Shown here: positions 35,801 to 38,800 of the stretch, piece after piece
Numbering within the stretch: position 1 is the first letter of the stretch
Layout: each line of letters starts with the position of its first letter
Source of the DNA: a virus
Taxonomy: Duplodnaviria; Heunggongvirae; Uroviricota; Caudoviricetes
IMG/VR virus record: IMGVR_UViG_2563366820_000003
Location: 1 to 50,054 of that record
Reading direction: 5' to 3' (one strand)
DNA: 50,054 bases
Position numbers: made by a program

Positions 35801-38800
35801 CACTAATCCGAATGATTACGGTATCGGGCGTTATGCGGGCCTTTCGGCCTCCTATACGCCGATGCGCGGATTTGTCGAAATCATTTTTAACATCAATGTG
35901 ACAATGCAGCTTTCGTGAGGGACTGAACCGTGCCTAATCCAATGATCCCCGTTGGCACCCTTAACCGGGTTCGCGCCAGCGTTAAATTCACCTCTCATTC
36001 CGAACTGAATGTGTCCGCCTCATTTCTGGCAAAAGAAGGCGTCGAATTGTCCTTTCAGGGCAATATCACGGAGTTTTTACCTGCTATGACGGGAGCCGTG
36101 CAGTCGCCGCAGCCATACATGATTTTACAGGCGCGTGTTCATCTGCTGCGTAGCCAGGCGCTGGGAAAACAATTCAAGGCGCAATGGGAAAAGAACGCCA
36201 CGATCGGCGACGCAAAAGTGTATAGCGACAGCACGGTATTCGGTGACTTCGATATCTATAACACGGCGATCACCAACGTGCAGGATATGACCTTCGCCGG
36301 GGGCGAGCCGGGTGTGGCCATCACCATTACCGGTACGTATTACATCAACTCTGAAATGTGGGATCTGGTATGAAAATCTCCCGAAATCTGAATCTGATTA
36401 TTCCTGTCCGGACAGAAAAGGGTAATGGCTGGATCCATGCCACGCCGATCAGCAAAGAGGTGTTTAAAGAGCATTTCTTCATTCTGAGTAAAACTTTTTC
36501 TGCCATTTTTTCTGAAGGTCTTGGCGTCGTTGCGGGTCCGCGTATCGCCTGCCTTATGCTGGAAAGGATCTCCTCAGATATGAATATCTGGGATGGCGAA
36601 AAGGGCGTTCGCAATACGCTCGTGAATGAAATCATTCGCCTTGCGAATCTGGTTTACCCAGCCGAAGGGAAAGGCTACGACACGATCCCGCTTGATATGG
36701 CGCTGGAGCGCGGCATCGTTGAATTTGATGATGTGGCAGGTGAACTCGTTTTTTTTACATGCGTCTCGTCGATAAACACACCGGAGCAGACGGAACAGAT
36801 GATGCTGGCAGTCAGTGGAATGTGGAACAGTCGCATTTCATCCTTGAGTCTTACGGAATGGATTGCTTCATTGCCGACATTGAAGCCTGTCGCCAGTTCT
36901 GGCGCGACGGCGAGCACGTTATCAGCGACATCCTCGACTACTCAGCCGGAGACGGATTCAGCGACATCTGGGCAAATTCCGGTCTGAATGTAAAAACAGC
37001 AGCTCAGTTTCGTGAGCTGCGTAAATGCACGACGCCGGGAGGTGTATTGAATGTCAGGTAATCAGATGCCGGTTCTGACACTGGACGTTAATGAAGAACG
37101 TCTTAAGCGACTTGAGGCGATATTTGAAAAGTATCGCAACGGGCTGATGATTGGCCCTGCCGGTACGCCTCTTAAAATACCTTCAAATACAGGTCCGGGA
37201 GGTGGCGTCCGGCAGACAACTACAGGCGGAGAAGCCAATCAGGCTCCCAGGAAACCATCTTCACCCGCGCCAGTTTCGGCTGCTTCCACTGATGGACGTT
37301 TAAGGGATGAAAAAGGGCGCTTTGTTGGAAGCGGGAAAACACCTGATTCGCTGGTGAGCAACTATAAAGGTCGCGGCGAAACGATGTTTGATAAGTACCT
37401 CAGCGGGCTGGGTAAAAACGCTCAGGGGACGCTGAAAACTTACAAACAGATCAATTCAACGCTTAAAACGACTAATTCCCGGTTAAAAAGCCTGTTTAAA
37501 ACCACGGTTTCGTGGGGGACGAAAATAGCTGCAATAGGGGTTGCGGGGCCGTTTGGCTACGGCTATATGGCAAGTAAAGTCGCGGCACAGTATAGCGTAG
37601 CTCAGGGTTTAGGGATGGAAACCGCCCAAATGCAGGCCGCACGTGCCACCTATTCGCCATATTTTTCTGGCACAGAAGAGCTGGTTCAGCATCTGGCTAA
37701 CGCACAGAAAAACCCGAACGATCCAAACTATGCTGGCCTGGTTAGTCTTGGAATTGATCCGCGAGATGGTGCTGCAAAGAATCTGCCCAAACTTATGAGC
37801 GCGCTTGCATCTCTCGTTAAGCAATATAAAGGTTCAGGACTTACTCAGGGGATTCTCAACGGACAAGGGCTTGGATTTGTTGATGTCGCGACAACTAACC
37901 AGATGGAAGCGAATCTGGACAAGATCCCCCAACTGAATGAGAAATTTGCAGCAAATACCAGGTTACTCGGCACTTACCTCACGCCAGCTATGCAGTCAGG
38001 TTATCAGGACACGGTGAGTAACCTGATGGTAAATGGAAACAGAATATCAAATTCCTGGTATGCAGCTCTCGCCAGATATAACCCACTAATCAGAGGTGCA
38101 TCAGATGGACTGACATCCAATATTGAAGGTTTTCTGAATGGTGGAAATTTTAAAAAAATTCTCACTGAGGCTGGCGAAGGGCTGGAGAAACTTGGTAAGT
38201 GGCTGAATAGCGAACAATTTAAAAATGATCTTGACGATTTTTCTCTGGCGGTGAGCCGGATTGCAAAAGCAATATGGTCAGCTATCAAATGGATCGGTGG
38301 GGAAGATAAATATCTCCCCGGAACCGGAGTTGGTGCTGAACAGGCAGATCCAGTTCTTGCGGCATTTGGGAATAAATATCTCGGTGGTGCGTTGCCGGGA
38401 GCAAACCCGATGACAAATCAGTATACGGGTGAGTTTTATAAACAGGATGATGTATATAAAAATTACCATATGCCTAATGATTTAAAGAGAAATATTCAGA
38501 ACTTTGTAGAGCAAGCCAATAATACTTATCGACTTCCTAAAAATATGATGTCAGCTATCGCGGAGGTTGAATCTTCGTGGAATCCTCTTGCAAGAGGAAC
38601 TCCAGATGAAAAAGGTAGATTCGCTAAGGGGTTGTGGCAATTCTGGGATAGCACCGCAAAACAGTATGGTCTGGTGGGTGATGATGTTTATGACCCAAAT
38701 AAATCCACTCTTGCGGCTGGCCGCTTTTTAAATGATCTGAATCGGCGTTATAAAGGCGATGTGGCAAAAATGCTTACGGCATATAACGGAGGTCGTATTG

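What the first reader, a model, noticed from the sequence alone, without database searches (positions are those of the whole stretch)
36370..37061. Candidate programmed -1 ribosomal frameshift at a T8 slippery run in the tail assembly chaperone gene
The ORF upstream of the tape measure gene contains T-TTT-TTT at 36750-36756. A -1 slip there enters the frame of ORF 36759-37061, which ends at the tape measure start. This matches the conserved G/GT (or E/E+E') chaperone frameshift of tailed phages. The zero-frame ORF continues unusually far past the slip site, with a Ser/Thr-rich tail, so either both products exist or the homopolymer is a phase-variable or error-prone site.
Basis: seen in the sequence. 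Interest (0 to 1): 0.45.

Follow-up and report, generated by a model that had tools for sequence, protein, structure and literature searches.

The report
Conserved mid-gene frameshift in tail chaperone
A run of eight T's in a prophage tail-assembly gene is very probably a real, deeply conserved ribosome slip site that yields two proteins from one gene, as in phages lambda and P2, but it lies in the middle of the gene, so about 76 codons are read in two frames.

Summary
T8 lies at 36749-36756, read GTT TTT TTT ACA in ORF 36370-36987. The -1 frame is closed by TGA at 36741-36743, then open to 37061, overlapping the next gene (start 37051) by 11 nt.

The frameshift interpretation is strongly supported by comparison, not by experiment:
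- In 14 lineages sharing only about 30-45% protein identity, the site is NNT TTT TTT AYN in 13.
- The -1 frame is open to the next gene in all 13 lineages whose contig reaches it.
- The -1 peptide is conserved, and 4-5 lineages have no start codon for it.
- 31 of 32 close relatives keep T8, so it is not a sequencing error or a phase-variable tract.

The long zero-frame continuation is real protein. Relatives align to about aa 186, and AlphaFold folds aa 8-170 as one domain with the slip site inside a helix.

Two products follow: a 205-aa protein and a 230-aa fusion (129 + 101 aa) that lacks the last third of the first. The mechanism matches lambda G/GT and P2 E/E+E' (T_TTT_TTG), where slip-to-stop is about 6 codons, against 76 here and 54-100 in relatives.

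Not annotated as a frameshift in any of the 21 database records inspected. Transcriptional slippage cannot be excluded.

The parts
34581..35918 (+). Tail sheath gene (445 aa), context
   Evidence: PHROG 205 'tail sheath', E 4e-55. The same position is held in all related loci.
35930..36373 (+). Presumed tail tube gene (147 aa), context
   Evidence: Identified by position and size only. PHROG 6566 has unknown function, and there is no Pfam, NCBIfam or PDB match. PGAP starts the gene at 35942 (432 nt); 35930 is the start annotated in Rac-SA53 and pPE4. Conserved 145-152-aa ORF in relatives. Its stop overlaps the chaperone ATG (ATGA).
36370..36987 (+). Zero-frame chaperone-like ORF ('G' analogue), 205 aa
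   Evidence: Annotated at this length in 12 of the 14 close-relative records inspected; 1 is marked frameshifted and 1 was not re-checked. There are 704 cluster representatives at E<=0.001, typically 185-200 aa, aligning to aa 1-~186. AlphaFold pLDDT is 86.7, with one fold over aa 8-170 and aa 171-205 disordered.
36741..36743 (+). TGA stop in the -1 frame, closing it two codons upstream of the T run
   Evidence: Translation of the -1 frame.
36750..36756 (+). Slippery heptamer T_TTT_TTT (inside the T8 run 36749-36756), proposed -1 shift site
   Evidence: Sequence. It is the only in-phase X_XXY_YYZ in the overlap. It is conserved as NNT TTT TTT AYN in 13/14 distant lineages, P~8e-21. T8 is kept in 31/32 close relatives.
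36756..37061 (+). -1 frame extension ('T' analogue): 101 codons plus TAA. Fusion product = join(36370..36756, 36756..37061), 230 aa
   Evidence: The frame is open in the window and all 14 close relatives read, and in all 14 distant lineages (one contig ends before the next gene). The peptides are homologous, with invariant Y, YG and R and the motifs LD(W/Y)A..EGF and (E/Q)(F/Y)RQR. AlphaFold gives residues 1-18 disordered, then a five-helix domain at pLDDT ~80. PHROG 14324.
36757..36984 (+). Dual-coding overlap: 76 sense codons of the zero frame (36757-36984) lie inside the -1 ORF. The main constraint switches from the zero frame to the -1 frame at about 36847
   Evidence: Per-position entropy by codon phase in 13 lineages. 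The invariant zero-frame T162 (alignment A2) and the invariant -1 frame YG are encoded by the same bases, about 36850-36858.
36760..36794 (+). Weak candidate stimulatory hairpin starting 4 nt after the heptamer
   Evidence: -8.5 kcal/mol, z -1.07, and 25 of 200 shuffles fold as well. Hairpins at the same place are strong in some lineages: L022 z -2.7 and L024 z -3.8. Inconclusive for this window.
37051..39039 (+). Tape-measure-like gene with a C-terminal lytic transglycosylase domain (662 aa), context
   Evidence: Pfam SLT, E 1e-20, at aa 486-583. The orthologue is annotated 'tape measure protein' in Klebsiella phage RothD.

Best explanation
This is the tail-assembly-chaperone gene pair of a temperate myovirus, the Rac-SA53 / E. 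coli W prophage type.

**How it works.**
- Most ribosomes read ORF 36370-36987 straight through and make a 205-aa protein.
- A minority slip back one base on U_UUU_UUU (36750-36756). At that moment the two tRNA-Phe occupy the P and A sites, and both re-pair perfectly in the -1 frame.
- These ribosomes continue with TAC ATG CGT... to the TAA at 37059-37061. The result is a 230-aa fusion: the first 129 residues of the chaperone plus a 101-residue module, made of a ~20-aa flexible linker and a small helical domain.

**Proposed roles, by analogy with lambda G/GT and P2 E/E+E'.** The shared N-terminal part would coat the tape-measure protein. The -1 module would recruit the tube protein. The slip frequency would set the ratio of the two products.

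**What is different here.** The branch point lies inside a helix of the chaperone fold, 76 codons before the zero-frame stop. The fusion therefore lacks the last ~40 folded residues and the disordered tail of the short product. The two proteins carry alternative C-terminal modules encoded by the same DNA in two frames.

**Shown versus inferred.**
- Shown: the sequence anatomy, the conservation of the site and of both frames, the absence of an independent start in several lineages, and the synteny.
- Inferred: that slipping occurs, that it is ribosomal, its efficiency, and the roles of the two products.
For: 1. **Anatomy.** The T8 is in phase, a -1 frame stop lies two codons upstream, and the -1 ORF runs into the next gene's start.
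2. **Synteny.** The order is sheath, tube-sized ORF, this ORF, then an SLT/tape-measure-like gene. Related Yersinia phages are myoviruses with contractile tails by electron microscopy (PMC9224151).
3. **Site conservation.** In 14 lineages at ~30-45% protein identity the site is NNT TTT TTT AYN in 13 and GTG TTT TTT ATT in 1. TTT makes up only 35% of other Phe codons, giving P~8e-21. The residue after FF is only T, I or M (ACN/ATN), which keeps the -1 codon as TAY and never a stop. UUUUUUU is under-represented in E. coli genes in all three frames (PMC4066793).
4. **The -1 ORF in relatives.** In the 13 lineages whose contig reaches it, the -1 frame runs from the site to within -27..+10 nt of the next gene start. 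This fills a gap of 57-165 nt that is otherwise non-coding.
5. **The -1 peptide.** It is conserved, with invariant YG exactly 32 codons after the slip in 12 of 13 lineages, plus EGF and RQR motifs. Positional entropy moves to the -1 frame's third positions from about +91 nt.
6. **No independent start.** L016, L018, L021 and L029 have no ATG, GTG or TTG in the -1 frame between the slip site and the conserved domain, and probably L019 too, whose scan misfired. Only one of the candidate starts elsewhere has an SD-like motif.
7. **Precedent.** P2's annotated -1 site is T_TTT_TTG in the same genomic position. In both P2 and lambda the -1 ORF overlaps the tape-measure start by 8 nt, against 11 nt here.
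8. **Downstream hairpins.** They are enriched on average (mean z -0.87 over 14 lineages) and strong in several.
Against: - There is no direct protein or RNA evidence.
- The downstream hairpin in this window is weak and not significant.
- One lineage (L024) has G_TTT_TTT, an imperfect heptamer.
- The T-part profile search returned 26 proteins (58-152 aa), none long enough to be a full fusion; the one I read that begins with chaperone sequence (P0288) reaches the -1 frame through an indel near aa 90, not at the slip site. So the fusion is not independently confirmed.
- Among close E. coli relatives, synonymous/non-synonymous counts in the overlap do not favour either frame.
- The P value assumes independent lineages.
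Confidence: 0.75

Rival explanations
1. Same two products, different machine: RNA polymerase slips on the T run and adds one U to a fraction of transcripts. Standard translation of U9 mRNA then gives the fusion, with the identical VFFYMR junction.
For: The site is a pure homopolymer: T8 here, and T8 in 10 of the 16 distant loci read. Runs of A or T are known slippage sites, and Sharma et al. give transcriptional slippage as one possible reason why UUUUUUU is avoided in E. coli genes. The downstream RNA structure is weak in this window.
Against: From my own knowledge (Baranov et al. 2005), efficient slippage by E. coli RNA polymerase usually needs runs of 9 or more. In this family the run is never longer than 8 and is 7 or 6 in 6 of those 16 loci. 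What is conserved is exactly the in-phase heptamer plus the following A. P2's T_TTT_TTG run is only 6 T's and is annotated as a translational frameshift. Several lineages have strong hairpins 2-7 nt downstream, as expected for ribosomal shifting.
Confidence: 0.15
2. The -1 ORF is a separate small gene, translated from its own start (the ATG at 36759 here) or by re-initiation. No fusion protein is made.
For: The window has an ATG at 36759, right after the T run. ORF 36759-37061 matches its own PHROG family, 14324.
Against: The ATG is not conserved: the peptides continue YG.., YC.., YL.., YV.. in other lineages. At least four lineages have no ATG, GTG or TTG between the T run and the conserved domain, and only one candidate start has an SD-like motif. 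This would not explain why T_TTT_TTT AY is conserved at nucleotide level. In several lineages the -1 frame is closed only 2-12 codons upstream of the site.
Confidence: 0.04
3. The homopolymer is a mutational or phase-variable site or a sequencing error. The true gene has T7 or T9, and only one product exists per genome.
For: One E. coli genome (L012, ETEC1706) has T7 and is flagged 'frameshifted' by PGAP. A truncated T7-type product, P0121 (..ELVFLHASRR), exists in the protein database.
Against: 13 of 14 genome or phage relatives and 18 of 18 metagenome contigs have T8. T7 leads to a stop after five codons, not into the -1 ORF. No T9 (in-frame fusion) copy was seen. The zero-frame protein downstream of the run is conserved in hundreds of relatives.
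Confidence: 0.03
4. No recoding at all. FF is simply a conserved structural motif of the chaperone, and the open -1 frame is a by-product of composition.
For: F128 and F129 sit inside a confidently predicted helix and are nearly invariant at protein level.
Against: Protein conservation would allow TTC. It does not explain 14/14 TTT TTT, the T at the preceding wobble position, or the restriction of the next residue to T, I or M. The -1 peptide has invariant residues, and third-position variation follows the -1 frame from about +91 nt. The +1 frame is broken by stops. The -1 ORF always ends at the next gene.
Confidence: 0.03

Closest known systems
Phage P2 E / E+E' (tail chaperone pair of a myovirus; -1 frameshift at T_TTT_TTG)
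   Same: - The gene order is the same: sheath, tube, chaperone pair, tape measure.
- The slippery heptamer is nearly identical (T_TTT_TTG against T_TTT_TTT).
- The -1 ORF has no start of its own and overlaps the tape-measure start (8 nt in P2, 11 nt here).
   Different: - In P2 the slip is 6 codons before the E stop, so E+E' contains almost all of E. Here it is 76 codons before the stop and inside the fold.
- No sequence similarity to curated chaperone families or solved structures was detected; P2 E itself was not compared directly.
- The proteins are about twice as long: 205 and 230 aa, against 91 and 142.
Phage lambda G / GT (-1 frameshift at G_GGA_AAG; ratio about 30:1)
   Same: - Two products share an N-terminus, and the -1 part ends overlapping the tape-measure gene H by 8 nt.
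- The roles I assume are taken from lambda: G binds the tape measure and the T domain binds the tube protein (review PMC5009743).
   Different: - Lambda is a siphovirus.
- The G/T ORF overlap is 19 nt, against 244 nt of open -1 frame inside the zero-frame ORF here.
- The heptamer is different.
- GT contains essentially all of G.
E. coli dnaX tau/gamma (-1 frameshift in mid-gene)
   Same: From my own knowledge: a mid-gene -1 slip on a homopolymer-like heptamer (A_AAA_AAG) gives two proteins that share an N-terminal part and differ in their C-terminal modules.
   Different: In dnaX the shifted frame stops almost at once, so the frameshift product is simply a truncation. Here the shifted frame encodes a conserved ~100-aa module. 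The biology is unrelated.

Membership tests
G/GT-type tail assembly chaperone pair with programmed -1 frameshift (lambda G/GT, P2 E/E+E') | Lies between the tail tube (major tail) gene and the tape measure gene | tested here: met
   The sheath gene matches PHROG 205. A 147-aa tube-sized ORF follows, then this ORF, then a 662-aa SLT-domain protein that is annotated as tape measure in RothD. The order is the same in all related loci.
G/GT-type tail assembly chaperone pair with programmed -1 frameshift (lambda G/GT, P2 E/E+E') | An X_XXY_YYZ slippery heptamer in the zero-frame phase from which the -1 ORF is entered | tested here: met
   T_TTT_TTT at 36750-36756 is the only such motif in the overlap. 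It is conserved at nucleotide level in 13/14 lineages.
G/GT-type tail assembly chaperone pair with programmed -1 frameshift (lambda G/GT, P2 E/E+E') | The second ORF has no initiation signals of its own | tested here: met
   There is no conserved start codon. At least 4 lineages have no ATG, GTG or TTG at all before the conserved domain, and only one candidate start has an SD-like motif.
G/GT-type tail assembly chaperone pair with programmed -1 frameshift (lambda G/GT, P2 E/E+E') | The -1 ORF runs up to, or slightly overlaps, the start of the tape measure gene | tested here: met
   The overlap is 11 nt here. It falls within -27..+10 nt in the 13 lineages whose contig reaches the next gene, and is 8 nt in lambda and P2.
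G/GT-type tail assembly chaperone pair with programmed -1 frameshift (lambda G/GT, P2 E/E+E') | [quoted passage not shown] | tested here: not met
   Slip-to-stop is 76 codons here and 54-100 in relatives, against about 6 in lambda and P2. The slip site lies in helix 119-135 of a fold that extends to aa 170.
G/GT-type tail assembly chaperone pair with programmed -1 frameshift (lambda G/GT, P2 E/E+E') | Sequence or fold relationship to a described chaperone family | tested here: not met
G/GT-type tail assembly chaperone pair with programmed -1 frameshift (lambda G/GT, P2 E/E+E') | Both proteins are made in a fixed ratio, both are needed for tail assembly, and neither is in the virion | not testable with these tools
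   This needs mass spectrometry or western blots and phage genetics.
Transcriptional-slippage recoding sites | A homopolymer long enough for efficient RNA polymerase slippage (usually 9 or more A/T in E. coli; from my own knowledge, Baranov et al. 2005) | tested here: inconclusive
   The run is 8 here, 6-8 in relatives, and never longer. This is short for efficient slippage, but low-level slippage cannot be excluded.

The most novel reading that the evidence does not exclude
The family may use a chaperone logic different from lambda's. The conserved mid-fold branch point gives two proteins with mutually exclusive C-terminal modules. One carries a helix-strand-helix cap plus a disordered Ser/Thr tail. 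The other carries a linker plus a five-helix domain. The fusion would then have an incomplete, perhaps open, chaperone fold. The 54-100-codon dual-coding overlap, kept over 30% protein identity with partitioned constraint, would be an adaptive design and not an accident of where a slippery site happened to arise.
Probability: 0.35. Interest if true: 0.6.

Novelty: new variant of a known kind. Interest (0 to 1): 0.45.

Why it matters
**Annotation.** The family is large: 704 cluster representatives at 50% identity. It occurs in prophages of E. coli (92 of 5,426 complete genomes), Salmonella, Citrobacter, Klebsiella, Yersinia, Pantoea, Burkholderia and Shewanella. None of the 21 phage and genome records I inspected, nor PHROGs, marks a frameshift. 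The fusion product is missing from protein databases, and the region after the zero-frame stop looks like a non-coding gap.

**Biology.** This is a clean natural case of long, ancient dual coding. Selective constraint is handed over from one frame to the other at a definable point.

**Mechanism.** It tests the lambda model, in which the long product is thought to need the whole short product. Here it cannot contain it.

**Recoding.** It adds a deeply conserved U_UUU_UUU site, a motif that E. coli genes otherwise avoid.

Tried and rejected
- **Other slip sites.** I looked for a second site nearer the zero-frame stop and found no other in-phase X_XXY_YYZ.
- **Synonymous versus non-synonymous counts among 14 close E. 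coli relatives.** These were uninformative in the overlap, as expected when both frames are constrained and there are few independent haplotypes.
- **The search for related loci with protein alignments A1 and A2.** I used tblastn against phages and the look-up of encoding contigs instead.
- **Upstream Shine-Dalgarno-like stimulator.** AGGTGA at 36738-36743 lies 6 nt before the heptamer, but it is not conserved in distant lineages. Dropped.
- **Downstream RNA structure in this window.** A 124-nt fold is not better than shuffles (z +0.85). The local hairpin is weak (z -1.07). No covariation test was worthwhile, because the stem is also dual-coding.
- **AlphaFold of the fusion protein.** The effect of truncating the fold at aa 129 therefore could not be modelled.
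- **Natural in-frame fusions.** I searched with a profile of the -1 module. None of the 26 hits (58-152 aa) is long enough to be a full fusion. I read seven of them: the one that begins with chaperone sequence (P0288) has an upstream indel, probably an assembly error, and P0280, P0283 and P0285 are -1-frame ORFs reading through FFY.
- **Literature.** The papers on the Yersinia and Klebsiella relatives do not mention a frameshift.
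Full report
**1. What is in the sequence**

The window reads ...GAA CTC GTT TTT TTT ACA TGC GTC... The run of eight T's is at 36749-36756.

ORF 36370-36987 starts at an ATG that overlaps the stop of the preceding gene. It encodes 205 aa and reads the run as V-F-F (aa 127-129).

The -1 frame carries a TGA at 36741-36743. It is then open for 105 codons up to the TAA at 37059-37061. A -1 slip with the two Phe codons in the P and A sites (heptamer T_TTT_TTT, 36750-36756) continues TAC ATG CGT... for 101 codons.

The next gene, 662 aa, starts at 37051, so the -1 ORF overlaps it by 11 nt. 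No other in-phase X_XXY_YYZ motif exists between 36744 and 36987.

**2. Context**

The region is 97% identical to Escherichia phage Rac-SA53 and occurs as a prophage in 92 of 5,426 complete E. coli genomes, among them E. coli W.

The upstream genes are a tail sheath (PHROG 205, E 4e-55) and a 147-aa tube-sized ORF. The downstream gene is a 662-aa protein with a C-terminal SLT lytic transglycosylase domain. Its orthologue in Klebsiella phage RothD is annotated as tape measure protein.

Related Yersinia phages (vB_YenM_06.16-1 group) are myoviruses with contractile tails by electron microscopy (PMC9224151).

None of the 21 database records I inspected annotates a frameshift here: 8 phage records and 13 E. 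coli genome records. They list the 205-aa ORF as 'hypothetical protein' and leave about 60-130 nt unannotated before the next gene.

**3. Close relatives**

I compared 14 copies at 83-98% DNA identity.

- T8 is present in 13, and both frames stay open in all 14. One copy has T7 and is flagged 'frameshifted'.
- A pattern scan of metagenome contigs found 18 further copies, all T8.
- T7 would lead to a stop five codons later, not into the -1 ORF. No T9 copy was seen.

This argues against a sequencing error or a phase-variable tract.

**4. The long zero-frame continuation is real protein**

A search of 1.8 billion cluster representatives found 704 relatives. They are mostly 185-200 aa and align to residues 1 to about 186 of the query.

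The alignment shows conserved motifs well past the T run: LW..QTTSL..TEF..SLP.ST.

AlphaFold, run with that alignment, gives pLDDT 86.7 and pTM 0.78. It predicts one compact fold over residues 8-170. The slip site F128-F129 lies inside helix 119-135. That helix is followed by helix 138-152, a short strand and helix 161-167. Only residues 171-205, the Ser/Thr-rich tail, are disordered.

**5. The slip site and the -1 ORF are conserved across the whole family**

I obtained DNA for five distinct phages (six records; Chronis and RothD share one lineage) and eight metagenomic lineages. The phages are Klebsiella Chronis and RothD, Pantoea PdC23, Yersinia YenM_21.09 and YenM_29.18, and Shewanella QDWS, all at 29-34% protein identity. 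The metagenomic lineages are at about 35-45% identity to the query and at most 50% to each other.

- **The site.** With the window this makes 14 non-redundant lineages. The site is NNT TTT TTT AYN in 13 and GTG TTT TTT ATT in one.
- **Codon usage.** Elsewhere in the same genes Phe is TTT in only 23 of 66 cases. The wobble base of comparable codons is T in 19%. The chance of the observed pattern is about 8e-21 if lineages are treated as independent.
- **The following residue.** It is always T, I or M (ACN/ATN), which keeps the first -1 codon as TAY rather than a stop.
- **Extent of the -1 frame.** It is open from the site for 95-158 codons in the 13 lineages whose contig reaches the next gene, and it ends within -27 to +10 nt of that gene's start. 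This fills the unexplained gap. The +1 frame is broken by stops.
- **The -1 peptides.** They are homologous, with invariant Y after FF, YG, R, and near-invariant L, G and F in the motif LD(W/Y)A..EGF. YG lies exactly 32 codons after the slip in 12 of 13 lineages.
- **Start codons.** Four lineages, and probably a fifth whose scan misfired, have no ATG, GTG or TTG in the -1 frame between the T run and the conserved domain. Only one candidate start elsewhere has an SD-like motif. The -1 module can therefore only be reached from the zero frame.
- **Further lineages.** A profile of the -1 module finds only 26 proteins among 5.8 billion, all 58-152 aa. Gene callers evidently almost never call this ORF. 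I read seven of them. Three come from other lineages (one from Burkholderia gladioli) and also read ..FFY.. One (P0288) starts in the chaperone frame and enters the -1 frame through an indel near aa 90, not at the slip site.
- **Structure of the -1 module.** AlphaFold predicts about 20 disordered residues followed by a five-helix domain at pLDDT about 80.

**6. How two frames share the DNA**

I measured positional entropy in 13 lineages that can be aligned without gaps.

| Region after the slip | Where variation peaks | Main constraint |
|---|---|---|
| +1 to +90 nt | zero-frame third positions | zero frame (fold helices) over the unconstrained -1 linker |
| +91 to +120 nt | all positions are low | both frames |
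| beyond +120 nt | -1 frame third positions | -1 helical domain over the disordered zero-frame tail |

In the doubly constrained stretch, the same bases encode the invariant T162 of the zero frame (alignment A2) and the invariant YG of the -1 frame. The hand-over lies at about window position 36847.

**7. Mechanism**

The best-supported mechanism is -1 ribosomal frameshifting on U_UUU_UUU.

The nearest experimentally established case is P2 E/E+E'. The P2 record marks the -1 site at T_TTT_TTG, in the same genomic position.

Hairpins starting 2-7 nt after the heptamer are present in the lineages I folded, but their strength varies.

- They are strong in L022 (z -2.7) and L024 (z -3.8). L024 is also the lineage with the imperfect heptamer.
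- The hairpin is weak in this window: -8.5 kcal/mol, z -1.07.
- The mean z over 14 lineages is -0.87.

I treat the stimulator as unproven.

Transcriptional slippage would give the same protein and cannot be excluded. However, the run never exceeds 8 and is 6-7 in six of the 16 distant loci read. What is conserved is the in-phase heptamer.

UUUUUUU is generally avoided in E. coli genes (PMC4066793). This makes its retention here more telling under either mechanism.

**8. Comparison with known systems**

The arrangement works like lambda G/GT and P2 E/E+E'. It meets their positional and recoding criteria.

Two features are not met.

- **No recognisable chaperone family or fold.** There is no sequence or fold match to any described chaperone family.
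- **The shift is not near the 3' end.** Slip-to-stop is 76 codons here and 54-100 in relatives. In lambda the G/T ORF overlap is 19 nt, and in P2 slip-to-stop is 20 nt.

The 230-aa fusion therefore cannot contain the whole 205-aa protein. It lacks about 40 folded residues and the tail.

I also could not survey all annotated chaperone frameshifts. My statement that so long an overlap is unusual therefore rests on the two classic cases and on the review's wording 'near the 3' end' (PMC5009743).

**9. Verdict**

This is a new, unannotated family of the known tail-chaperone frameshift. Its variant architecture is a mid-fold branch point with a deeply conserved dual-coding overlap.

My confidence that the site is a functional recoding site is about 0.9. 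My confidence that it is ribosomal is about 0.75. Interest is moderate: the kind of system is expected by specialists, while the architecture and the depth of conservation are worth a short experimental follow-up.

Noticed in passing
L006 1-604 and L009 1-579 (E. coli ETEC1748, STEC719): In these prophages the gene directly upstream of the chaperone is annotated 'DUF2213 domain-containing protein' instead of the 147-aa tube-sized gene. This suggests a mosaic or rearranged tail module.
   Followed up: no
L002 (PP818812.1, 'Actinobacillus phage vB_Apl-pPE4'): The record is 91% identical in DNA to this E. coli prophage region, over 100% of a 1.5-kb query. The stated Actinobacillus host looks doubtful.
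   Followed up: no
Hits H55 and H56 (OK094664.1 and OP650936.1): Shewanella phage vB_Sb_QDWS and 'Hujiaoplasma phage zrk29-1' have the same record length (47,902) and identical hit statistics. They may be the same genome deposited under two hosts.
   Followed up: no
window 37051-39039; L023 738-2129; L027 2181-3564; L025 2336-3687: The tape-measure-like gene downstream of the chaperone carries a different cell-wall-lytic domain in different lineages: SLT in the window and L025, VanY in L023, Phage_lysozyme2 in L027.
   Followed up: partly
L016 3131 versus L017 3197: Chronis gp14 ('putative lytic transglycosylase') is annotated as starting 66 nt further upstream than the near-identical RothD gene. 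That start lies inside the -1 ORF, so it is probably mis-called. RothD also annotates a 34-aa ORF (3103-3207) that is a fragment of the -1 ORF.
   Followed up: partly
H3 (NZ_CP026085.1): An assembly labelled E. coli DH5alpha carries this prophage region at 98.6% identity. From my own knowledge this is unexpected for a K-12 derivative, so the strain may be mislabelled.
   Followed up: no
window 664-23001: 21 of the window's 27 homopolymer runs of 7 or more bases lie in the first 24 kb, several of them T8 or A8 clustered at 17.3-20.4 kb. I did not examine them.
   Followed up: no
L012 about 980 (E. coli ETEC1706) and protein P0121: T7 alleles of the slip site exist. They truncate the chaperone at ..ELIFLHASRR (L012) or ..ELVFLHASRR (P0121) and should abolish both normal products. 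They are either homopolymer sequencing errors or dead prophages.
   Followed up: partly
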